Sequence record: OZ035777.1
DNA length: 40,656 nucleotides
Strand: one strand, 5' to 3'
Source of the DNA: Przondovirus NAN33P1
Part shown: positions 384 to 9,002 of the stretch, piece by piece
Position numbering within the stretch: position 1 is the first letter of the stretch
How the letters are laid out: the number at the start of each line of letters is the position of its first letter
The notes under the pieces: model-generated
The model's database searches: none
Seen by the model: only the letters and a program-made list of their open reading frames with translations
What the model was told of the DNA's origin: nothing
Program-made: the position numbers and the translations under genes

Positions 384-830
384 ATGCTGGAAATTACAAA
401 GAGAATCGTCCCGTATCTTGTGGTTATCATGGTGTTCGCCTTCGGGTGGCACTTTGGGTCACAATCCACGGACACCAAATGGAAGGAGGTAATACAGAAT
501 GAGTACGTTCAGAAGCAAACAGCTAGAGCTGAGACTCAGAAAGCGATTGACGCAGTATCGGCTAAGTACCAAGCAGACCTTGAAGGGCTGGAAGGCAGCA
601 CTGATAGGATTATTGCTGATTTGCGTAGCGACAATAAGCGGCTGCGCGTCAGAGTCAAACCTACCAGTGTCGCCGCAGGCCCAGACGGTCGATGCCTCGT
701 TGATGGTTCCGTCGAACTACACGAAGCAACTGCTCGAAGTCTTATCGCAATAACCCAGAAGGCCGACCTCAAAGAGAAGGCCCTACAGGACACAATTCGC
801 AAACTTCAAGGGAAAGGAGGTGAACATTGA
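384..830 (+). CDS. Rz-like i-spanin (T7 gene 18.5 homolog)
   Basis: 148 aa, ATG 384 with SD GGGAGG. N-terminal TM helix ([17 protein letters not shown]) then periplasmic coiled-coil region; collinear with T7 gp18.5 (…[10 protein letters not shown]…DRII(A/S)[14 protein letters not shown]…ALQDTIR). Stop TGA 828-830 overlaps the terminase start. Confidence 0.88.
499..753 (+). CDS. Rz1-like o-spanin lipoprotein, embedded in the +1 frame of Rz (T7 gene 18.7 homolog)
   Basis: 84-aa ORF entirely inside the Rz gene in another frame. ATG 499 with SD GGAAGGAGG (481-489). Hydrophobic stretch ending in a lipobox-like ISGC, then a Pro-rich periplasmic tail. Classic embedded Rz/Rz1 arrangement. Confidence 0.7.
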   Translation: MSTFRSKQLELRLRKRLTQYRLSTKQTLKGWKAALIGLLLICVATISGCASESNLPVSPQAQTVDASLMVPSNYTKQLLEVLSQ

Positions 831-2584
831 GTAACTCTCAGCAAGCCAAGAACGCCTTAATCATTGCGCAACTGAAGGGTGACTTTGTCGCCTTTCTCTT
901 CGTGCTATGGAAGGCCCTGAACCTGCCGGAACCAACCAAATGTCAAATCGACATGGCCAAGTGTCTGGCAGACCCAAAGAACAAGAAGTTCATCCTTCAG
1001 GCTTTCCGTGGTATCGGGAAGTCGTTCATCACGTGTGCGTTCGTAGTGTGGACCCTGTGGCGTGACCCTCAGTTAAAGATATTGATTGTCTCAGCCTCAA
1101 AGGAACGTGCGGACGCTAACTCCATCTTCATCAAGAACATCATCGACTTGTTGCCTTTCCTGAGTGAGCTTAAGCCTCGCCCCGGTCAGCGTGACTCCGT
1201 GATTAGCTTCGATGTAGGCCCTGCCAAGCCGGACCACAGCCCGTCAGTTAAGTCTGTGGGTATTACAGGTCAGCTTACTGGTAGCCGTGCCGATATCATC
1301 ATTGCGGATGACGTGGAGATTCCCGGTAACTCTGCAACCCAAGGTGCCCGCGAGAAACTCTGGACGCTGGTTCAGGAGTTCGCCGCACTGTTGAAACCTC
1401 TGCCGACTAGCCGTGTTATCTATCTGGGGACCCCTCAGACCGAGATGACGCTCTACAAGGAACTTGAGGACAACCGTGGGTACTCGACGATTATCTGGCC
1501 TGCACAGTATCCCCGCTCCAAAGAGGAAGACCTGTACTACGGCGACCGTCTGGCTCCGATGCTCCGCATTGAGTACGATGAGGACAAAGAGGGCCTAAGT
1601 AGCCAACCTACCGACCCGGTGCGATTCGACTCCATGGACCTTCAGGAACGTGAGGTGGAATACGGCAAGGCTGGCTATACGCTTCAGTTCATGCTCAACC
1701 CGAACCTCAGTGACGCCGAGAAGTACCCTCTACGCCTCCGTGACGCTATCGTGTGCGGTCTACAGATGGACAAGGCCCCAATGCACTACCAGTGGCTTCC
1801 GAACCGTCAGAACCGCAATGAGGAGCTTCCTAACGTGGGCATGAAGGGTGACGAGATTTACTCCTTCCATACAGCCTCAAGTAACACTGGTGCGTATCAG
1901 GGTAAGATTCTGGTCATTGACCCAAGTGGTCGCGGTAAGGATGAGACTGGCTGGTGCGTTCTATACACCCTCAACGGCTACATCTACTTGATGGACGCTG
2001 GTGGTACTCGTGGTTACGAAGAGAAGTCCCTTGAGTTCCTCGCTAAGAAGGCTAAGCAGTGGCAGGTGCAGACTGTGGTCTTCGAGAGTAACTTCGGTGA
2101 CGGTATGTTCGGTAACGTGTTCCAGCCTGTGCTCCTGAAGCATCACCCAGCGCAACTCGAAGAGATTCGTGCTCGTGGTATGAAAGAGGTCCGTATCTGC
2201 GATACCCTTGAGCCTGTACTGGCAAGTCACCGCTTGGTTATCCGTGATGAGGTAATCCGTCAGGACTACCAGACAGCACGCGATGCAGACGGTAAGCACG
2301 CTCTGAAGTACAGCCTGTTCTACCAGATGACCCGTATGAGCCGTGAGAAGGGCGCTGTGGCACATGACGACCGACTTGATGCGTTAGCATTGGGTGTCGA
2401 GTTCCTACGCTCTACGATGCAGCAAGACGCTGTGAAGATAGAGGCTGAGGTACTTCAGGAGTTCTTGGAGTACCACATGGAGAAACCTCTGAGTAACATC
2501 TCCCAGTTCCGGGCCACAAGCAGTAACGGTGTGGACATCCGGTGGGAAGACGATGGGGATGACTCTATGTTCATCTCATGGTGA
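827..2584 (+). CDS. terminase large subunit / DNA maturase B (T7 gene 19 homolog)
   Basis: 585 aa, near-collinear with T7 gp19 (…[17 protein letters not shown]…[15 protein letters not shown]…[14 protein letters not shown]…[16 protein letters not shown]…). Start is TTG at 827 (the frame is closed by TGA at 821-823) with SD AAGGAGG at 814-820. Confidence 0.95.
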
Positions 2585-2664
2585 TTATGCAGTGATTGTG
2601 CATAAGGATTCATTAGGCCAAGGAAGGCCACTTTTGGAAAACTCTAAGCATAACAGACACTTGG

Positions 2665-2687
2665 AATTAGGTAGCACTATAGGGAGA
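2665..2687 (+). promoter_or_regulatory. phage RNAP promoter (phi-OR-like, after gene 19)
   Basis: AATTAGGTAGCACTATAGGGAGA, exact match to the 23-bp consensus shared by 13 sites in this window; predicted +1 is G at 2682. Position matches T7 phi-OR. Confidence 0.8.
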
Positions 2688-2827
2688 GACCCAAGGTTAC
2701 ATACTATAAGACTACTTAAAGTTTCATTCATATAGATATGCACTTTAAGTCTCCTCTATGAGAGAGGGTAGTGATGATAATATCACCCTCTAACTATAAG
2801 ACACTAGAGCCAACATAAGGAGGACCT

Positions 2828-2977
2828 ATGCGCTTACTGTTAACCTTACTGCGCCATAGGACTACTTGGCGATTTCTGCTGGTACTTGCTGGTGCCCTTG
2901 GGGCTTCACTGGTTACTCAGCAGCAACTCAGTGGACTGGAGACTCTCGTGTGCTCTCTACTCACTTGTAGCGATTAG
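2828..2977 (+). CDS. gene 19.5-like small protein
   Basis: 49-aa ORF not in the supplied track (<60 aa): MRLLLTLLRHRTTWRFLLVLAGALGASLVTQQQLSGLETLVCSLLTCSD. ATG 2828 with SD TAAGGAGG (2816-2823), stop TAG 2975-2977. Last gene before the genome end, as T7 gene 19.5. Confidence 0.6.
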   Translation: MRLLLTLLRHRTTWRFLLVLAGALGASLVTQQQLSGLETLVCSLLTCSD

Positions 2978-3161
2978 GGTCTTCCTGACGCGCTAGGGAT
3001 TCCGTAGTGATGCTTATCAGCATACACCACTCCATCCCTCTACAGTCAATACTTAAAGTTAACCTTAGGTGATTCATTGGGTCCACCTACGGGTCTATGC
3101 AATGACCTGAGGACTACCTGAGGTTACCTTTAAGAATATGACATAAAGTTCTGAGCGTACA

Positions 3162-3342
3162 TCTCATAGTTTACACTTTTGGTTATCCCCCCCGGTACCC
3201 TCTCAGTCCACCCAAAGTAACCATAGGCCACCCTAAACCTTCGGTTTAACCTTAGGTGGGACTGATGGGAAACCTTTGGTGATACTATATGTTGTGGTGA
3301 GTGGGACCTTGGGATACTATATGTTGATGTCTCTGTGTCCCT
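3162..3342 (+). repeat. predicted terminal repeat region (single collapsed copy) with the physical left genome end near 3162
   Basis: 3162 begins TCTCATAGTTTACAC (T7 left end is TCTCACAGTGTACGG); a C7 run, ACCTTCGGTT, and ...TGTCTCTGTGTCCCT|ATCTGTT at 3329-3348 parallel the T7 terminal repeat and its right boundary as recalled from memory. Boundaries are approximate. Confidence 0.4.
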
Positions 3343-3471
3343 ATCTGTTGGTACTCATTAAGTCACACCTGAGGTAACTACCTGAGGTAATACCGGAGAC
3401 CATATACCTTAGGTTAACCGATGGTACATTAGGTTGAGACTCTTAGATAGTGGTTATCCAGTCATTTACAC

Positions 3472-3494
3472 AATTAGGTATCACTATAGGGAGA
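3472..3494 (+). promoter_or_regulatory. phage RNAP promoter (phi-OL-like, left end)
   Basis: AATTAGGTATCACTATAGGGAGA, one mismatch to consensus (G to T at -8); +1 G at 3489. Lies just upstream of the host-type early promoters, as phi-OL does in T7. Confidence 0.65.
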
Positions 3495-3571
3495 CACTCT
3501 GAGTATTACTAAGAGACCATCACCATAAAGACAACCATCACTATAGGTCTACTTAAAGTTAACTTAGAGTA

Positions 3572-3600
3572 TTGACATTAAGAATACACTGTGAGACTAT
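3572..3600 (+). promoter_or_regulatory. host sigma70-type early promoter (T7 A1 homolog)
   Basis: -35 TTGACA 3572-3577, 17-bp spacer, -10 GACTAT 3595-3600. Upstream AGAGTATTGAC is identical to the T7 A1 promoter upstream region as recalled. Confidence 0.6.
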
Positions 3601-3704
3601 AGCAACCGTTGAGAGACACAACGCTACCAACCACTAGCATACTTCGAGTTACTAGATGGATGCTGAAGGGTCTCAAGTAGCTATCAACCGGCATACGAAA
3701 GTGG

Positions 3705-3733
3705 TTGACTCAACGATGAACAAGTAGTAAGAT
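3705..3733 (+). promoter_or_regulatory. host sigma70-type early promoter (A2/A3-like)
   Basis: -35 TTGACT 3705-3710, 17-bp spacer, -10 TAAGAT 3728-3733; about 175 bp upstream of the first early gene. Confidence 0.5.
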
Positions 3734-3907
3734 GCACCACAGATTCACGAAGTATCGCTCTTTTACAATATGGATTAGCTGACATGTACATCACTCATCA
3801 CTTAGTGTTTAACTAGTGGTTACATTCAGGTCTCTGGCAAGGTACGTCCTGTCACCCTGAGAGTAGCCACACTGATAACCACTAATGTAACATTGAGGAT
3901 ATACACC

Positions 3908-4375
3908 ATGATTCACACGAAAGAACCAGCCAACAAAGTATTTGTATTCGTTACCGCTTACCGTGGGTACGAGTCACTCGAAGTTAACGAGAAGGTACTC
4001 AAGGGCCTCATTCGCACCATTAAGACCTATCCGGGAGCGTATGGCAACATTCGTGATGAGAACGTACAAGGATGCTTTAAGGAGGCTGGTATACCTGAGG
4101 CAACGCAAGAGCGCACGCTTAAGGTGGAATGTACCGTCAAACAAGCGGCTGAGCTGTCATGGTTAGCATGTAAGACCTACCATCAAGACGCTGTACTGGT
4201 GGTTAACTCACAGACTCACACGGCCTCTCTGTGGTCTATCGAGGACAAGGGCGAATACCCAATGGTATACCCATGCTTGAAAGAGGTGTCTTTGGGTGGC
4301 ACGCTGCAACAGGTTGATGCACCTAAGGGTGAATGCTATTCGGTAATCGACGGGCAATACTGGGAGGTGGTGTAA
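3908..4375 (+). CDS. S-adenosylmethionine lyase (T3 gene 0.3 SAMase homolog, anti-restriction)
   Basis: 155 aa from ATG 3908 (SD GAGGA 3895-3899). MIHTKEPANKVFVFVTAYRG...SQTHTASLW... is collinear with the T3 SAMase as recalled (MIFTKEPANVFYVLVSAFRS...SQTHTAGLV). First early gene. Confidence 0.8.
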   Translation: MIHTKEPANKVFVFVTAYRGYESLEVNEKVLKGLIRTIKTYPGAYGNIRDENVQGCFKEAGIPEATQERTLKVECTVKQAAELSWLACKTYHQDAVLVVNSQTHTASLWSIEDKGEYPMVYPCLKEVSLGGTLQQVDAPKGECYSVIDGQYWEVV

Positions 4376-4575
4376 TGAGTAAGCTACTAGCGATATCCAA
4401 AATAACAGGGCAATACACTGTAACACTACGGGAGTACCCGCACGGTAAAATGGGGAGTACCTACACTGTGCGATACGGTAAGCAGGTAAAACACTGGGAC
4501 AACGTGGTACTAGCTCAGGAGGATTATCAATCGTGCGTAGTACATCAATCAACTTGCGCTGGGTGGAATTACTGA
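4375..4575 (+). CDS. hypothetical early protein (66 aa)
   Basis: ATG 4375 overlaps the SAMase stop (TAATG), SD GGAGG 4362-4366. MSKLLAISKITGQYTVTLREYPHGK... No homolog recognised. Confidence 0.5.
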   Translation: MSKLLAISKITGQYTVTLREYPHGKMGSTYTVRYGKQVKHWDNVVLAQEDYQSCVVHQSTCAGWNY

Positions 4576-4757
4576 TGAAACACTACGGAATCACACAGCA
4601 GGATCTCAAGATCACTCGCAAGGCCATGAAGGTGGCCCTGATGTATGTCAACCAGTCACCTGAAGACATGAACGCATGGCACGGCTACTATATGGCCCAG
4701 CTGGCAGCAATTTATCATACTCGTAAGGTAATGTATGATAACCCTGTTCGTAATTAG
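4575..4757 (+). CDS. hypothetical early protein (60 aa)
   Basis: ATG 4575 overlaps the upstream stop (TGATG), translationally coupled. MKHYGITQQDLKITRKAMKVALMYVNQSPEDMNAWHGYYM... Confidence 0.5.
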   Translation: MKHYGITQQDLKITRKAMKVALMYVNQSPEDMNAWHGYYMAQLAAIYHTRKVMYDNPVRN

Positions 4758-4932
4758 TGTGTACGCCCTGATTGTCCTGTACTTTGTGCGGGACTTTCGC
4801 AAGGGTCTTAATGTACACAAAGCATCATTCAGTTACCTGAAGTGGGGCGTGCTGCCTCGCTTTACTGTAAGACTACCTAATGGCCGCTTTAAGGCAAACA
4901 AAGTGGGGATATTCTATGTCGCAACGCACTAA
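4735..4932 (+). CDS. hypothetical early membrane protein (65 aa)
   Basis: ATG 4735 overlaps the previous gene; N-terminal hydrophobic helix (ITLFVISVYALIVLYFV) then a basic tail. Confidence 0.5.
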   Translation: MITLFVISVYALIVLYFVRDFRKGLNVHKASFSYLKWGVLPRFTVRLPNGRFKANKVGIFYVATH

Positions 4933-5149
4933 CCTGAAGAAAGCATTCAAGATTGCACGGATGGTTATGACCTACGGTGCATCCGAACGCGCCACAAAGA
5001 AAGCATACATCAGGCACCACATACGACTACCAGCAAGACAGCAGCGATGGGTAATACGTAGCGTGCACATTCAACTACACGAGCCATTCATGGTCCCTAA
5101 GGACCTCGTTCCATCAGCAACTGGTTTTGCAAAGCGCCAAGAGTTTTAG
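4916..5149 (+). CDS. hypothetical basic early protein (77 aa)
   Basis: ATG 4916 (GGGGA 6 nt upstream); an alternative in-frame ATG exists at 4880. Lys/Arg-rich: MSQRTNLKKAFKIARMVMTYGASERATKKAYIRHHIRLPARQQRW... Confidence 0.45.
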   Translation: MSQRTNLKKAFKIARMVMTYGASERATKKAYIRHHIRLPARQQRWVIRSVHIQLHEPFMVPKDLVPSATGFAKRQEF

Positions 5150-5192
5150 CACTCGTTAACACCACACACTACTATTTAAAGGAAACAACTAA

Positions 5193-6212
5193 ATGAACTA
5201 CACCGACATGCAAGAACGCTTAGACGTCATCCGTAACCTACCAATCTGTGAACTCGACAAGCGCCAACCGCTATTGGTTGCACTCATCGCGGACATTGTG
5301 AACTACGAGACGTCTGACGGTGACGATACAGCTAGCAGCTGTGGTCTGGAAAGTCAGTACTACTGGCAAACACTGAAGATTAAGGCCAAAGACGCCGGGT
5401 TTAACCTGCTGGGTAATGGTCACTTCAGCGCAGCGTTTAAGCACGAGCTACTACCGGGTAGGGTCATCAAGGTTGGCTTTAAGAAAGAAGACTCTGGGGC
5501 CGCTTACGTAGCATTCTGCCGGATGCATCAAGGTCGTGACGGTATTCCTAACGTCTATCACGTAGCGCGTCACGCTGGGTGCTACACGGTGGTACTAGAT
5601 GAGTTGTTACCGTGTCAACGCTACGAGGATGATGACCACGACCATTATGCAGACTTAGCGTTTCAATTCGTTGAGTGCACAGGCTACGACCATGAGGATT
5701 ACCGCAAGGATGACCAGCCGTTCATCGAAACGTGCCAGATGATTCGCAAGTTCTTCTACGGGATTGCGTCCTTTGATATGCATAGTGGTAACATCATGTT
5801 CACCAAAGACGGCAAGCCAGTGATTACCGACCCGGTGTCATTCTCGCATGACCGCGAACGTGAGTCGTTCTCACTGGAACCTGAGGAACTGCTCGCAGAG
5901 ATTGAGCAGATAGCGCACGATAAGATGATTGAACGCTGCAAGCGCAACAAGGCTAAGCGTGACCCGAACGGGGAGCTGCGCATCGCACGCCGTAAGGCCA
6001 ATAAGGAACGTCGGGCTGCCAACAAGGCACACGCTAGGTGGCGCAAGGAGCGCGAACGTGAACGTGAGCAGTATCACGTAGAAGCCTTAAAGGCAGACAT
6101 AGCGAGCATTGAAGCGCGCGTTCCGGTGTGGTGCAGGGGACCGGGCCTAGCGATACAAATGGGCAAGCCACTACCAATCGACAACTACCTTCAGGCTAGA
6201 CTTATGGGTTAA
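5193..6212 (+). CDS. serine/threonine protein kinase, host shutoff (T7 gene 0.7 homolog)
   Basis: 339 aa; LPICELDKRQ...AGFNLLGNGHFSAAF...RVIKVGFKKEDSGAAY(V/T)AFCRM.QGR.GIPNVY.V.RHAGCYTVVLD...IRKFF.GIASFDMHSGNIMF...ITDPVSFS is collinear with T7 gp0.7, followed by a basic Arg/Lys-rich C-terminal region. Confidence 0.92.
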   Translation: MNYTDMQERLDVIRNLPICELDKRQPLLVALIADIVNYETSDGDDTASSCGLESQYYWQTLKIKAKDAGFNLLGNGHFSAAFKHELLPGRVIKVGFKKEDSGAAYVAFCRMHQGRDGIPNVYHVARHAGCYTVVLDELLPCQRYEDDDHDHYADLAFQFVECTGYDHEDYRKDDQPFIETCQMIRKFFYGIASFDMHSGNIMFTKDGKPVITDPVSFSHDRERESFSLEPEELLAEIEQIAHDKMIERCKRNKAKRDPNGELRIARRKANKERRAANKAHARWRKEREREREQYHVEALKADIASIEARVPVWCRGPGLAIQMGKPLPIDNYLQARLMG

Positions 6213-6281
6213 CGAGGTGTATCTTAGGTGTCTCCACTGCGAGGCACCAATAGATAAACTTTATTCACAAAGAGGCACACA

Positions 6282-9002
6282 ATGAACGCATTAAACATTG
6301 CACGTAATGACTTCTCAGAGATTGAACTGGCCGCTATTCCGTACAACATCCTCAGCGAGCACTACGGGGACAAACTGGCACGTGAGCAGTTAGCACTCGA
6401 ACATGAAGCGTACGAGCTGGGCGAGCAGCGTTTCCTGAAGATGCTGGAACGTCAGGTTAAAGCTGGTGAGTTCGCTGACAACGTGGCCGCTAAGCCGCTG
6501 GTCTTAACGTTGCACCCACAGTTAACCAAGCGTATTGACGACTGGAAGGAGGAGCAAGCAAACGCTCGCGGTAAGAAGCCTCGCGCATACTATCCGATTA
6601 AGCACGGTGTGGCCTCAGAGTTAGCCATTAGCATGGGCGCTGAGGTGCTCAACGAGAAGCGCGGAGTGTCCAGTGAGGCAATCGCACTGCTAACCATTAA
6701 GGTAGTCTTAGGGACGCTCACAGACGCCTCAAAGGCCACCATCCAGCAGGTATCCTCTCAGTTAGGTAAGGCCCTTGAGGATGAGGCCCGCTTCGGTCGT
6801 ATTCGTGAGCAGGAAGCCACCTACTTCAAGAAGAACGTAGCGGACCAGCTGGACAAGCGCGTAGGCCACGTGTACAAGAAGGCTTTCATGCAGGTTGTCG
6901 AGGCCGATATGATTTCCAAAGGGATGCTGGGTGGTGACAACTGGGCGAGCTGGAAGACCGACGAGCAGATGCACGTGGGGACCAAGCTGCTAGAGTTACT
7001 CATTGAGGGCACTGGTCTGGTGGAAATGACCAAGAACAAGATGGCCGATGGCTCCGACGATGTGACCAGTATGCAGATGGTCCAGCTGGCTCCGGCCTTT
7101 GTGGAACTCCTGAGCAAACGAGCAGGCGCACTCGCAGGTATCAGCCCGATGTACCAGCCGTGCGTAGTCCCTCCGAAACCTTGGGTTGGAACTGTGGGTG
7201 GAGGCTACTGGTCAGTCGGTCGTCGCCCGCTGGCACTGGTGCGTACCCACTCCAAGAAGGCACTGCGCCGCTATGAAGACGTGCACATGCCTGAGGTGTA
7301 CAAAGCAGTCAATCTCGCGCAAAACACGCCGTGGAAGGTGAACAAGAAGGTGCTGGCGGTAGTCAACGAGATTGTCAACTGGAAGCACTGCCCGGTGGGT
7401 GACGTCCCGGCGATTGAGCGCGAAGAATTACCACCACGCCCGGACGATATCGATACCAACGAGGTGGCACGCAAGGCTTGGCGCAAGGAGGCCGCAGCGG
7501 TCTACCGTAAGGACAAGGCACGACAGTCTCGCCGTTTGTCAATGGAGTTCATGGTTGCACAGGCCAACAAATTCGCTAACCATAAGGCCATCTGGTTCCC
7601 ATACAACATGGACTGGCGTGGACGTGTGTACGCTGTTAGCATGTTCAACCCGCAGGGTAACGACATGACTAAGGGTATGCTGACACTGGCCAAGGGCAAA
7701 CCGATTGGTCTCGATGGGTTCTACTGGCTGAAGATTCACGGTGCAAACTGTGCAGGCGTCGATAAGGTTCCTTTCCCTGAGCGCATCAAGTTCATCGAAG
7801 AGAACGAGGGCAACATTCTGGCGAGCGCAGCCGACCCACTGAATAACACTTGGTGGACCCAGCAGGATTCGCCGTTCTGTTTCCTAGCGTTCTGCTTTGA
7901 GTATGCAGGCGTTAAACATCACGGCCTGAATTACAACTGCTCGCTGCCGCTGGCGTTCGATGGGTCATGCTCTGGGATTCAGCACTTCAGCGCAATGCTC
8001 CGCGATTCCATCGGTGGCCGTGCGGTAAACCTGCTGCCATCTGATACCGTGCAGGATATCTACAAGATTGTGGCCGATAAGGTCAACGAGGTGCTCCACC
8101 AGCACGTTGTCAACGGGTCTCAGACGGTGGTCGAGCAGATTGCAGACAAGAAGACTGGGGAGTTCCGCGAGAAGGTAACACTGGGTGAGTCCGTGCTGGC
8201 TGCTCAGTGGTTGCAATATGGTGTTACCCGTAAGGTGACTAAGCGTTCGGTCATGACGCTGGCGTACGGTTCCAAAGAGTTTGGCTTCCGCCAGCAAGTT
8301 CTTGAGGACACCATTCAGCCAGCTATTGATAACGGCGAGGGCTTGATGTTTACGCACCCTAACCAAGCGGCTGGCTATATGGCTAAGCTGATTTGGGACG
8401 CTGTTACCGTGACCGTAGTGGCCGCTGTCGAGGCTATGAACTGGCTGAAGTCTGCTGCTAAACTGCTGGCCGCTGAAGTCAAGGACAAGAAGACCAAAGC
8501 GGTGCTCCGTAAGCGCTGCGCAATCCACTGGGTAACACCAGACGGCTTCCCGGTGTGGCAGGAATATCACAAGCGCGACCAAGCGCGCCTGAAGCTGACG
8601 TTTCTAGGTCAGGCCAACGTGTTCATGACGTACAACAAAGGGGAAGCCAAAGAGATTGACGCACATAAGCAGGAGTCAGGAATCGCTCCTAACTTTGTGC
8701 ACTCACAGGATGGTAGTCACCTGCGCATGACCGTAGTGCACGCCAACGAGGTCTACGGGATTGACTCCTTCGCGCTCATTCACGACTCCTTCGGGACCAT
8801 TCCGGCAGATGCTGGGAATCTATTTAAGGCAGTCCGTGAGACGATGGTAAAGACCTACGAGGATAACGATGTGATTGCAGACTTCTATGACCAGTTCGCT
8901 GACCAGCTGCACGAGTCTCAGCTCGATAAGATGCCTGAGGTACCAGCCAAAGGGGACCTGAATCTGCGCGATATCTTAGAGTCTGACTTTGCGTTCGCGT
9001 GA
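6282..9002 (+). CDS. single-subunit DNA-directed RNA polymerase (T7 gene 1 homolog)
   Basis: 906 aa (the size I recall for K11 RNAP; T7 is 883). Collinear with T7 RNAP throughout, including the C-terminus ...IHDSFGTIPADA.NLFKAVRETMV.TYE..DV.ADFYDQFADQLHESQLDKMP..PAKG.LNLRDILESDFAFA. Confidence 0.98.
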   Translation: MNALNIARNDFSEIELAAIPYNILSEHYGDKLAREQLALEHEAYELGEQRFLKMLERQVKAGEFADNVAAKPLVLTLHPQLTKRIDDWKEEQANARGKKPRAYYPIKHGVASELAISMGAEVLNEKRGVSSEAIALLTIKVVLGTLTDASKATIQQVSSQLGKALEDEARFGRIREQEATYFKKNVADQLDKRVGHVYKKAFMQVVEADMISKGMLGGDNWASWKTDEQMHVGTKLLELLIEGTGLVEMTKNKMADGSDDVTSMQMVQLAPAFVELLSKRAGALAGISPMYQPCVVPPKPWVGTVGGGYWSVGRRPLALVRTHSKKALRRYEDVHMPEVYKAVNLAQNTPWKVNKKVLAVVNEIVNWKHCPVGDVPAIEREELPPRPDDIDTNEVARKAWRKEAAAVYRKDKARQSRRLSMEFMVAQANKFANHKAIWFPYNMDWRGRVYAVSMFNPQGNDMTKGMLTLAKGKPIGLDGFYWLKIHGANCAGVDKVPFPERIKFIEENEGNILASAADPLNNTWWTQQDSPFCFLAFCFEYAGVKHHGLNYNCSLPLAFDGSCSGIQHFSAMLRDSIGGRAVNLLPSDTVQDIYKIVADKVNEVLHQHVVNGSQTVVEQIADKKTGEFREKVTLGESVLAAQWLQYGVTRKVTKRSVMTLAYGSKEFGFRQQVLEDTIQPAIDNGEGLMFTHPNQAAGYMAKLIWDAVTVTVVAAVEAMNWLKSAAKLLAAEVKDKKTKAVLRKRCAIHWVTPDGFPVWQEYHKRDQARLKLTFLGQANVFMTYNKGEAKEIDAHKQESGIAPNFVHSQDGSHLRMTVVHANEVYGIDSFALIHDSFGTIPADAGNLFKAVRETMVKTYEDNDVIADFYDQFADQLHESQLDKMPEVPAKGDLNLRDILESDFAFA

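What the first reader, a model, noticed from the sequence alone, without database searches (positions are those of the whole stretch)
4375..5149. Cluster of four overlapping small early genes between the SAM lyase and the gp0.7 kinase
Four translationally coupled ORFs (4375..4575, 4575..4757, 4735..4932, 4916..5149; 60-77 aa) fill the slot where T7 carries genes 0.4-0.65, which encode cell-division, cytoskeleton and defence inhibitors. None resembles the T7 proteins by eye. One has an N-terminal TM helix (4735..4932) and one is strongly basic (4916..5149). Expressed first from host promoters, they are prime candidates for uncharacterised host-takeover or anti-defence functions.
Basis: inference. 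Interest (0 to 1): 0.6.

Follow-up and report, generated by a model that had tools for sequence, protein, structure and literature searches.

The report
Four small early phage takeover genes
The four short overlapping genes are real, conserved early genes of a T7-like Klebsiella phage that belong to already named gene families (0.45, 0.4, 0.6, 0.65), and one of them is probably a cell-division (FtsZ) inhibitor, so the cluster is a fairly ordinary part of the phage's host-takeover region.

Summary
Four coupled ORFs (66, 60, 65 and 77 aa) lie between a SAM lyase and a gp0.7-type kinase in a Klebsiella Przondovirus. They sit downstream of host-type early promoters, and all four evolve under purifying selection.

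They are not orphans:
- ORF A (4375-4575) is gene 0.45 of phiYeO3-12/13a.
- ORF C (4735-4932) is T3-type gene 0.6, 65% identical to T3 gp0.6 and present in 664 phage records.
- ORF D (4916-5149) has the N-terminal domain of T3 gp0.65.
- ORF B (4575-4757) is the gene that the phage K11 record.4. It is a remote but supported homologue of T7 gp0.4, the FtsZ inhibitor. Support comes from reciprocal PHROG hits near 1e-4, hhalign, and a linking sequence. Five of six experimentally defined FtsZ-contact residues are kept, while the face sensed by the CapRel defence protein is replaced.

C and D show no detectable homology to T7 gp0.6A/0.6B, so the T7 MreB-inhibitor function cannot be transferred to them. 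A (β4-α fold), C (membrane helix plus a small basic cytoplasmic β-domain) and D (basic, probably helical) remain functionally uncharacterised.

Verdict: new members of known kinds, modest interest.

The parts
3470..3492 (+). phage-RNAP promoter, phiOL equivalent
   Evidence: Core CACTATAGGGAGA at 3482. Sits where the phiOL promoter annotated in K11 aligns (K11 478-915 aligns to window ~3471-3910 at 85% identity).
3572..3608 (+). host sigma-70-type early promoter (K11 'host RNAP promoter' 1 equivalent)
   Evidence: TTGACA...; 8 mismatches of 37 to the K11 annotated promoter. Predicted by homology only.
3705..3741 (+). host sigma-70-type early promoter (K11 'host RNAP promoter' 2 equivalent)
   Evidence: 1 mismatch of 37 to the K11 annotated promoter. 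TTGACT-17-TAAGAT also found by the consensus scan.
3800..3888 (+). stable RNA hairpin at the position of the R0.3 RNase III site
   Evidence: MFE -32.2 kcal/mol, z -3.25 against shuffles. T3 and phiYeO3-12 records annotate R0.3 just upstream of gene 0.3.
3908..4375 (+). gene 0.3, SAM lyase (context)
   Evidence: Pfam PF23780, E 9.5e-35. 91% identical to phage K5 ORF1.
4375..4575 (+). ORF A = gene 0.45 family (phrog_6500), 66 aa, β4-α fold
   Evidence: PHROG E 8.7e-41. 82% identical to phiYeO3-12 gp0.45. 157 phage records. AF2 pLDDT 90. dN/dS 0.05-0.3.
4575..4757 (+). ORF B = gp0.4-superfamily protein (phrog_5058), 60-aa form; probable FtsZ inhibitor
   Evidence: PHROG E 8.7e-26. K11 names its homologue gp0.4. 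hhalign and PHROG cross-hits to T7 gp0.4. FtsZ-contact residues kept.
4735..4932 (+). ORF C = T3-type gene 0.6 (phrog_2385), 65 aa, N-terminal membrane helix plus basic three-stranded cytoplasmic β-domain
   Evidence: 65% identical to T3 gp0.6. 664 phage records. 158 clusters. AF2 pLDDT 93.6. dN/dS 0.05-0.15.
4916..5149 (+). ORF D = gp0.65 family (phrog_23914), 77 aa, pI 11.5; conserved N-terminal ~42 aa plus a variable C-terminal tail
   Evidence: PHROG E 3.3e-48, and phrog_10380 (T3 0.65 family) E 5.2e-6. hhalign against the T3-type form E 1.4e-11. Identical to phage K5 ORF4.
5193..6212 (+). gene 0.7 protein kinase (context)
   Evidence: phrog_2828, E 1.5e-170.

Best explanation
The region is the variable host-takeover part of the class I (early) operon of a Klebsiella Przondovirus. 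It probably makes one mRNA from host-type promoters about 640-800 nt upstream. That mRNA carries the SAM lyase gene and then four translationally coupled small genes. Each gene is an independently exchangeable cassette that already has a name in the T7 supergroup.

(1) ORF A is gp0.45. It is a 66-aa four-strand-plus-helix protein under very strong purifying selection, with unknown target.

(2) ORF B is a gp0.4-family protein. By inference it forms a two-helix hairpin that binds monomeric FtsZ at the synergy-loop face and blocks Z-ring polymerisation, stopping cell division as T7 gp0.4 does. The window carries the 60-aa form, which has a 12-residue insertion between the two predicted helices.

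(3) ORF C is T3-type gp0.6. It is a single-pass inner-membrane protein. The positive-inside rule places its small, nearly invariant, strongly basic β-domain on the cytoplasmic face. It most likely binds a conserved enterobacterial membrane-proximal target that has not been identified.

(4) ORF D is a gp0.65-family basic protein, probably helical. It starts at its own ATG inside the end of C.

Shown here: gene reality, family membership, early-region position, predicted folds of A and C, and conservation of FtsZ-contact residues in B. Inferred: FtsZ inhibition by B, topology and target class of C, and any activity of A and D.
For: Identity of the phage and the slot.

Coding status: dN/dS well below 1 for all four. 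Third-position entropy exceeds amino-acid entropy outside the overlaps.

Early context: the K11-annotated phiOL and host promoters map to 3470-3741. No + strand terminator-like site in 2500-6400.

ORF A:
- phrog_6500, E 8.7e-41.
- 74-98% identical in Przondo-, Teetre- and T7-like phages, although dS is saturated.
- One cluster is named gp0.45 of phage 13a.

ORF B:
- The K11 record calls the homologue gp0.4.
- T7 gp0.4 hits B's phrog_5058 at E 9e-5, and a 48-aa B homologue hits T7's phrog_7202 at E 1.9e-4.
- hhalign of the 48-aa form against the T7 0.4 family gives E 7.4e-5, score 24, against a best score of 17.7 in 30 column-shuffled controls.
- With the linking sequence L071 included, probability is 97.9% and E is 6e-13.
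- T7 residues whose substitution abolishes Gp0.4 toxicity (PMC13423816) map as follows: V15 to L/I/M, V22 to L/M/F, M32 to M (37/37), L35 to L or M, Y39 to Y (37/37).

ORF C:
- 65% identical to T3 gp0.6; 664 records.
- AF2 pLDDT 93.6, with helix 2-27 followed by three strands.

ORF D:
- N-terminal domain homologous to T3 gp0.65.
Against: - The window's own 60-aa B does not hit T7's phrog_7202 at E <= 0.01. The 60-aa form alone gives hhalign E 0.038. The link therefore runs through family relatives.
- T7 W28, essential for FtsZ binding, is H36 in the window protein, with a Trp one position earlier.
- L071 could be a recombinant rather than an evolutionary intermediate.
- No experimental data exist for any Przondovirus protein of this cluster in the searched literature.
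Confidence: 0.65

Rival explanations
1. At least one of A, C or D is an anti-defence protein that inhibits or evades a Klebsiella immune system, rather than a host-physiology inhibitor.
For: - The cluster sits between two known counter-defence or takeover genes, the SAM lyase and the kinase.
- The slot is highly mosaic. A is present or absent. D has at least three alleles or is missing. Ant-like genes are inserted in some phages.
- The exact D allele is found only in phage K5.
Against: - No PADLOC, Pfam or NCBIfam hit.
- C and A are far too conserved across host genera, with dN/dS around 0.05-0.15, for a typical arms-race protein.
- A gp0.65-like protein (UDP0163) was in the Silas et al. accessory-gene library but is not mentioned in that paper's main text.
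- The Acr matches are below any meaningful Z.
Confidence: 0.25
2. C, alone or with D, is the functional equivalent of T7 gp0.6 and inhibits the actin-like protein MreB at the membrane.
For: - Same position and name: 0.6/0.6A in the T3, phiYeO3-12 and K11 records.
- T7 gp0.6 is cited as an MreB inhibitor (PMC5624674).
- C's basic cytoplasmic domain is held at the inner membrane, where MreB resides (the MreB location is from established knowledge).
Against: - hhalign of C against the T7 0.6A family aligns only the last 10 residues, score 12.0. Shuffled controls reach 15.2.
- T7 0.6A/0.6B belong to phrog_8393 with no cross-hit to phrog_2385 or phrog_23914.
- The shared tail is the DNA of the overlap junction with the next gene.
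Confidence: 0.15
3. C and D are joined by a programmed +1 ribosomal frameshift into a gp0.6B-like fusion protein, as annotated for phiYeO3-12 and suggested for T7.
For: - The phiYeO3-12 record annotates a 'putative +1 frameshift' giving 0.6B, and T7 has a 'possible gene 0.6B'.
- D is in the +1 frame of C.
- The 13-17 nt overlap is conserved across genera.
Against: - D has its own ATG with a GGGGA Shine-Dalgarno 6 nt upstream, conserved in Przondoviruses.
- T3 annotates an independent UUG start.
- The overlap RNA has no stable structure, z +0.97.
- No slippery codon precedes the stop (read directly from the sequence).
- Many phages have C without any D.
Confidence: 0.1
4. B is a diverged gp0.4 relative that no longer targets FtsZ and has acquired another partner.
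For: - Only about 25-30% identity to T7 gp0.4.
- W28 is replaced.
- There is a 12-residue insertion.
- The central third of the protein is hypervariable among Przondoviruses, with 48- and 60-aa forms.
Against: - The residues kept invariant across the B family are the ones shown to contact FtsZ in T7 (M32, L35, Y39).
- The variable ones are those that in T7 face the CapRel sensor (PMC13423816).
Confidence: 0.25
5. One or more of the ORFs are chance open frames and not genes.
For: The ORFs are short (60-77 aa). Many records label them 'hypothetical' or do not annotate them at all.
Against: PHROG family matches, conserved lengths and start contexts, dN/dS below 1, and a codon-position variation pattern typical of coding sequence.
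Confidence: 0.02

Closest known systems
T7 gp0.4 (FtsZ inhibitor; Kiro et al. 2013; Zhang et al. 2026, PMC13423816)
   Same: - ORF B's family gives reciprocal profile hits with the T7 gp0.4 family.
- The family's 48-aa form matches T7 gp0.4 (51 aa) in size.
- In phages that lack gene 0.45 it sits directly after gene 0.3.
- It keeps M32, L35 and Y39 and has conservative replacements at V15 and V22 of the FtsZ interface.
   Different: - 25-30% identity.
- The window protein is the 60-aa form, with a 12-residue insertion between the helices.
- W28 becomes H.
- All six residues that T7 gp0.4 presents to CapRel-Ebc are replaced.
- In this window it lies after gene 0.45 rather than before it.
- No experimental data.
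T3 gp0.6 / phiYeO3-12 gp0.6A / K11 gp0.6A (phrog_2385)
   Same: ORF C is a full-length orthologue: 65 aa, 63-69% identical. It shares the membrane helix and has a nearly invariant C-terminal 45 residues.
   Different: Nothing substantive. The function of the whole family is unknown. Despite the name it is not detectably related to T7 gp0.6A.
T3 gp0.65 / C-terminal part of phiYeO3-12 gp0.6B (phrog_10380)
   Same: ORF D shares the N-terminal ~42 residues (MSQRTN..MxYGAS..ARQ), the +1-frame overlap with gene 0.6, and the very basic character.
   Different: D is 77 aa, with a 25-35 residue C-terminal extension. The window allele is only about 50% identical to the other 77-aa alleles and is otherwise found only in phage K5.
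phiYeO3-12 / 13a gp0.45 (phrog_6500)
   Same: ORF A is an orthologue: 66 aa, 74-98% identical across genera.
   Different: - It is placed directly after gene 0.3 and before the 0.4-like gene. In T7-like phages it follows gene 0.4.
- Position 14 is Tyr instead of the usual Cys.
T7 gp0.6A/0.6B (MreB inhibitor)
   Same: Occupies the same slot before the kinase. The last ~10 codons and the start of the overlapping downstream frame are similar.
   Different: No significant protein homology to C or D. T7 gp0.6A has no membrane helix.

Membership tests
T7 gp0.4 family (FtsZ inhibitors) - ORF B | Sequence or profile homology to T7 gp0.4 | tested here: met
   - Reciprocal PHROG cross-hits at E 9e-5 and 1.9e-4.
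- hhalign E 7.4e-5 for the 48-aa form and 5.9e-4 for all B, above all 30 shuffled controls.
- With the linking sequence L071, probability 97.9%.
- Caveat: the window's 60-aa form alone gives E 0.038.
T7 gp0.4 family (FtsZ inhibitors) - ORF B | FtsZ-contact residues V15, V22, M32, L35, Y39 (substitution abolishes Gp0.4 toxicity in T7) | tested here: met
   Window residues L11, M18, M40, L43 and Y47. Across 37 family members: L/I/M, L/M/F, M (37/37), L (32) or M (5), Y (37/37) (residues from PMC13423816).
T7 gp0.4 family (FtsZ inhibitors) - ORF B | Trp28 at the FtsZ interface (W28L and W28A abolish binding) | tested here: inconclusive
   The aligned residue is H36 in the window (H or F in the family). 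The 60-aa form has a Trp one position earlier (W35).
T7 gp0.4 family (FtsZ inhibitors) - ORF B | Two antiparallel helices of about 50 aa | not tested
The window form has a 12-residue insertion at the inter-helix position.
T7 gp0.4 family (FtsZ inhibitors) - ORF B | Binds FtsZ, blocks polymerisation, causes filamentation | not testable with these tools
   Needs expression, two-hybrid or ITC experiments.
T3-type gp0.6 (phrog_2385) - ORF C | Full-length homology to T3 gp0.6, with an N-terminal hydrophobic helix and the conserved C-terminal motif ...NGRFKANKVGxFYxATH | tested here: met
   blastp 65% over 65 aa, E 3.5e-32. PHROG E 1.2e-28. Invariant columns in the 41-sequence alignment.
T7 gp0.6A/0.6B (MreB inhibitor, phrog_8393) - ORFs C and D | Sequence or profile homology to T7 gp0.6A or the 0.6B extension | tested here: not met
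   hhalign scores of 12.0 (C) and 13.5 (D) fall within the shuffled controls, which reach 15.2 and 14.2. No PHROG cross-hit.
gp0.65 family (phrog_10380 / phrog_23914) - ORF D | Conserved N-terminal ~42-residue domain, overlapping the end of gene 0.6 in the +1 frame | tested here: met
   hhalign E 1.4e-11. PHROG E 3.3e-48 and 5.2e-6. The overlap is conserved in the loci.
gp0.6B-type frameshift fusion - ORFs C+D | Programmed +1 frameshift signal (slippery site, stimulator) | tested here: inconclusive
   No stable RNA structure and no obvious slippery codon. D has its own ATG and SD. Absence of a signal cannot exclude low-level shifting.
gp0.45 family (phrog_6500) - ORF A | Full-length homology to phiYeO3-12 / 13a gp0.45 | tested here: met
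   PHROG E 8.7e-41. 82% identical to phiYeO3-12 gp0.45. A cluster named Gp0.45 of phage 13a.
AP2 / WGR / integrase arm-binding type DNA-binding fold - ORF A | Significant structural match, and a conserved basic DNA-contact surface on the sheet | tested here: inconclusive
Known anti-defence or defence proteins - all four | Match to a described defence-related family | tested here: not met
   No PADLOC hit at E <= 1. No Pfam or NCBIfam hit. PADLOC holds defence systems, not a full anti-defence catalogue.

The most novel reading that the evidence does not exclude
The gp0.4-like ORF B family is being reshaped by immune surveillance of the FtsZ-inhibitor complex. The FtsZ-binding face is frozen. 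The opposite face and the inter-helix loop are hypervariable among Klebsiella phages: there are 48- and 60-aa forms, and every residue that CapRel-Ebc senses in T7 gp0.4 is replaced. This would fit escape from effector-triggered sensors that guard FtsZ. Separately, the almost invariant membrane-anchored ORF C, present in 664 phage genomes, would target a still unknown conserved inner-membrane host factor.
Probability: 0.2. Interest if true: 0.6.

Novelty: new member of a known kind. Interest (0 to 1): 0.3.

Why it matters
For annotation, hundreds of Przondovirus genomes label these genes 'hypothetical'. They can be named 0.45, 0.4-like, 0.6 (T3 type) and 0.65. The 0.4-like gene can be given a testable function, FtsZ inhibition.

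For biology, there are two worthwhile leads:
- The pattern of conservation in the gp0.4-like family separates a fixed FtsZ face from a fast-changing face. That is what effector-triggered immunity of the CapRel type would be expected to produce.
- T3-type gp0.6 is one of the most conserved small early proteins of enterobacterial T7-like phages, and neither its function nor its fold has a known relative.

These phages are used against Klebsiella pneumoniae. Knowing which early genes arrest host division or alter the envelope therefore has some practical relevance.

Tried and rejected
- **Library scans.** Pfam, NCBIfam and PADLOC scans of all four proteins gave no hits at E <= 1.
- **PDB sequence and profile searches.** Nothing for C. 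Chance-level hits for A. Only de novo designed helical repeats for D.
- **C against T7 gp0.6A and gp0.5, and D against the T7 0.6B extension.** Not above shuffled controls. The MreB function was therefore not transferred.
- **B against D.** They share a 'MAYGAS' hexamer, but the match is not above shuffled controls.
- **Zinc site in A (C54/H57/C61).** Weakened, because C54 is Ser and C61 is replaced in some close homologues. The motif is, however, common in the wider family.
- **BFVD for A.** Only uncharacterised phage proteins.
- **Rfam.** No credible RNA family in 2500-6400.
- **Frameshift stimulator at the C/D overlap.** None found.
- **Literature.** No paper on gp0.45, gp0.65 or T3 gp0.6 function. 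Only a gp0.65-like protein appears in the Silas et al. accessory-gene library, and none of A, B or C does.
- **afdb50 fold library.** Not available.
- **The search for homologous proteins for D.** Returned only 7 clusters.
Full report
**What the window is.** Megablast of 3800-5250 finds 384 phage records, nearly all Klebsiella Przondovirus (T7-like, Studiervirinae). The best match is phage K5 at 91% identity. The assembly is circularly permuted. The large terminase lies at 827-2584, and the K11 left end (positions 1-237) maps to about 3162-3398. The early region follows.

The gene before the cluster is an S-adenosylmethionine lyase (Pfam PF23780, E 9.5e-35; ATG at 3908). The gene after it is the gp0.7-type kinase (phrog_2828, E 1.5e-170), followed by the RNA polymerase.

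| ORF | Coordinates | Length | Overlap with previous gene | Shine-Dalgarno |
|---|---|---|---|---|
| A | 4375-4575 | 66 aa | TAATG with the lyase stop | GGAGGT |
| B | 4575-4757 | 60 aa | TGATG with A | GGGTGGA |
| C | 4735-4932 | 65 aa | 23 nt with B | AAGG |
| D | 4916-5149 | 77 aa | 17 nt with C | GGGGA |

Each Shine-Dalgarno sequence lies 5-7 nt upstream of its ATG, read directly. C carries a hydrophobic N-terminal segment. D has pI 11.5.

**Are they genes?** Yes.
- Each matches a PHROG family of unknown function: phrog_6500, 5058, 2385 and 23914, at E 1e-26 to 3e-48.
- I fetched 80 related loci around kinase homologues, mapped the slot and extracted the homologous ORFs.
- Pairwise dN/dS against same-length homologues is 0.05-0.3 for A, 0.08-0.6 for B, 0.05-0.15 for C and 0-0.36 for D.
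- Third-codon positions vary much more than the encoded residues, except in the dual-coding overlaps.

**Early expression.** Phage K11 has an annotated phiOL promoter and two annotated host-RNAP promoters.
- A phiOL-type promoter (core CACTATAGGGAGA at 3482, taken as 3470-3492) lies where K11 phiOL aligns. The closest sequence match to K11 phiOL is a second promoter copy at 2665.
- The host promoters map to 3572-3608 (8 mismatches) and 3705-3741 (1 mismatch of 37).
- No + strand terminator-like site lies in 2500-6400.
- A stable hairpin at 3800-3888 (z -3.25) sits where T3 and phiYeO3-12 annotate the R0.3 RNase III site.

Early transcription is therefore well supported by homology, though nothing here measures it.

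**What each ORF is.**

ORF A is gene 0.45.
- It is 82% identical to phiYeO3-12 gp0.45.
- It occurs in 157 phage records from Klebsiella, Escherichia, Yersinia, Salmonella, Citrobacter and others.
- One cluster is named Gp0.45 of phage 13a.
- Amino-acid identity stays at 74-98% even where synonymous sites are saturated (dS above 1) and the neighbouring kinase is only about 50-60% identical. This indicates long-term strong constraint rather than recent transfer.
- AF2 gives a confident model (pLDDT 90) of four β-strands followed by an 18-residue helix.
- Foldseek against viral models finds many uncharacterised ~60-aa phage proteins, including some from jumbo phages, at TM 0.7-0.8.
- A profile search of 1.8 billion representatives finds 48 clusters, nearly all 60-90 aa. 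They share the motif GQxxVxL...YxVxYG...AxxEYxxCxxHxxxCAG(W/F).
- Its function is unknown.

ORF B is the informative one.
- It occurs in 310 phage records, essentially all Przondovirus. Its ends are conserved, its middle is hypervariable, and it comes in 48-aa and 60-aa forms.
- The K11 record, which uses T7-style gene names, calls the 48-aa homologue gp0.4.
- T7 gp0.4 hits B's phrog_5058 at E 9e-5. A 48-aa B homologue hits T7's phrog_7202 at E 1.9e-4.
- hhalign of the 48-aa form against the T7 0.4 family gives an ungapped 39-column alignment, E 7.4e-5, score 24. All B together give E 5.9e-4, score 21. The best of 30 column-shuffled controls scores 17.7.
- A T7-like phage (L071) carries, at the gp0.4 position, a protein with the T7 N-terminus and a B-like body. 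Including it raises the probability to 97.9%.

Zhang et al. 2026 (PMC13423816) showed that T7 Gp0.4 is a two-helix hairpin. It binds monomeric FtsZ at the synergy loop with Kd 382 nM. Substitutions V15A, V22A, W28A/L, M32A, L35A/P and Y39A abolish its toxicity, and W28L and L35P were also shown to abolish FtsZ interaction in yeast two-hybrid. Substitutions A12, T14, L16, S19, R23 and K36 affect only sensing by the defence protein CapRel-Ebc. In my alignment of 37 B-family proteins:

| T7 residue | Role | B family |
|---|---|---|
| V15 | FtsZ contact | L/I/M |
| V22 | FtsZ contact | L/M/F |
| W28 | FtsZ contact | H/F (a Trp one position earlier in the 60-aa form) |
| M32 | FtsZ contact | M in 37/37 |
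| L35 | FtsZ contact | L (32) or M (5) |
| Y39 | FtsZ contact | Y in 37/37 |
| A12, T14, L16, S19, R23, K36 | CapRel-facing | all replaced |

I conclude that B is a gp0.4-superfamily protein and probably an FtsZ inhibitor (about 0.6). The caveats are the W28 replacement, the 12-residue insertion in the window's form, and the weaker direct score of that form (E 0.038).

ORF C is T3-type gene 0.6.
- It is 65% identical over its full length to T3 gp0.6.
- The K11 and phiYeO3-12 records call it gp0.6A.
- It is present in 664 phage records from at least ten host genera and in 158 clusters at 90% identity.
- The last 45 residues are nearly invariant while their third-codon positions vary freely.
- AF2 (pLDDT 93.6) models a long N-terminal helix (residues 2-27), a three-stranded sheet (31-57) and a short helix.
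- The basic stretch RDFRKG...HK after the hydrophobic segment implies, by the positive-inside rule, that the β-domain faces the cytoplasm. This is an inference.
- Despite the shared name, C is not detectably homologous to T7 gp0.6A. hhalign aligns only the last 10 residues, at score 12.0, while shuffled controls reach 15.2. The PHROG families differ.
- The shared tail is the DNA of the overlap junction with the next gene. Locus L063 combines a C-type gene with a T7-type downstream gene.
- The MreB-inhibitor function reported for T7 gp0.6 (cited in PMC5624674) therefore cannot be transferred by homology.

ORF D belongs to the gp0.65 family.
- Its first ~42 residues are homologous to T3 gp0.65: blastp E 3e-5, cross-PHROG E 5e-6 to 8e-6, hhalign E 1.4e-11.
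- The C-terminal tail is allele-specific.
- The window's exact allele occurs only in phage K5. The other 77-aa alleles are about 50% identical.
- This slot holds at least three alleles, or nothing, or an Ant-like gene.
- D shows no significant similarity to the T7 0.6B extension beyond the first six residues.
- phiYeO3-12 annotates a putative +1 frameshift joining 0.6A to this frame. Here D has its own ATG and SD, and the overlap RNA is unstructured. Independent, coupled initiation is the simpler reading.

**Mosaic structure.** Across the 80 loci the slot between gene 0.3 and the kinase is assembled from interchangeable cassettes:
- SAM lyase or Ocr.
- 0.45 present or absent. It comes before the 0.4-like gene here and after gene 0.4 in T7-like phages.
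- A 0.4-like gene in Przondoviruses, and true 0.4 in T7-like phages.
- T3-type 0.6, or T7-type 0.5 plus 0.6A.
- One of several 0.65 or 0.6B alleles.

The description is accurate, and the 'early host-takeover' framing is reasonable. The cluster is nevertheless made of known, named families. One of them does resemble a T7 protein once profiles are used. There is no specific evidence for anti-defence activity.

**Verdict.**
- The genes are real and the cluster is ordinary for this phage group: new members of known kinds.
- The useful outputs are the probable FtsZ-inhibitor assignment for ORF B and its split pattern of conservation. The analysis also shows that 'gp0.6' of T3-type phages is unrelated to T7 gp0.6, and that ORF C is a highly conserved small membrane protein with no known function or structural relative.
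- Interest 0.3.

Noticed in passing
window 827-3400: The window is a circularly permuted assembly. The large terminase gene (827-2584) precedes the physical left end of the genome. The K11 terminal repeat and left end (1-237) match window positions ~3162-3398 at 84% identity.
   Followed up: partly
window 3800-3888: A stable RNA hairpin (-32.2 kcal/mol, z -3.25) lies just upstream of the SAM lyase gene. T3 and phiYeO3-12 annotate the R0.3 RNase III processing site at this position.
   Followed up: partly
window 2675, 3482, 9662, 12438, 23413, 24483, 28999, 36285: Eight phage-RNAP promoter cores (ATTAGGTAGCACTATAGGGAGA-like) lie on the + strand. They include a second copy at 2665-2687, just before the genome end.
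   Followed up: no
L015:2262-2441, L022, L023, L031, L038, L040, L041, L048, L051, L059, L070: A 59-aa paralogue of ORF A (phrog_20418, about 37% identical, same C..H...C motif) sits upstream of gene 0.3 in 11 Przondovirus loci. It never co-occurs with gene 0.45 itself. The numbers are too small for this exclusivity to be significant.
   Followed up: partly
L071:2730-2876: A T7-like phage carries, at the gp0.4 position, a protein with the T7 gp0.4 N-terminus and a Przondovirus B-like body (MANNVQYGLTREMLQTYRVAMAYGASFGYCMAQLAQTYRARKAMYGSK). It is either an evolutionary intermediate or an in-frame recombinant.
   Followed up: partly
L001:1781-1972 versus L063, L064, L072, L073, L078, L080: The C-terminal part of T7's 'possible gene 0.6B' (…DKRGRRGIDERKRLKPRNSPHLNRH) is in a different frame from the corresponding protein of close T7 relatives (…AQERAAWHRRKEKVKAKKLAALEKALANTLNAIS). 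The T7 reference therefore appears frameshifted relative to its relatives.
   Followed up: no
L031:2884-3252: One metagenomic Przondovirus contig lacks gene 0.3 and has the B-like and C genes fused in frame (122 aa). This could be a real fusion or an assembly error.
   Followed up: no
L029:2602-3465, L045:2639-3466, L055:1759-2586: A 275-287 aa gene is inserted between gene 0.6 and the kinase in some Przondoviruses. Other records with such inserts annotate a prophage anti-repressor (Ant) in this early region (IME183, CP-p-Kpn-21069).
   Followed up: no
L009, L015, L040, L043, L051, L055 (B/C junction): In some phages the B-like gene is extended to 67-79 aa and C has a different N-terminal membrane segment (MPLPLVIIALLGYSLIL...). 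This gives a much longer B/C overlap.
   Followed up: no
window 4208-4552 (- strand): A 114-aa antisense ORF spans the lyase/ORF A junction. I made no test of it and take it to be a chance frame opposite coding sequence.
   Followed up: no
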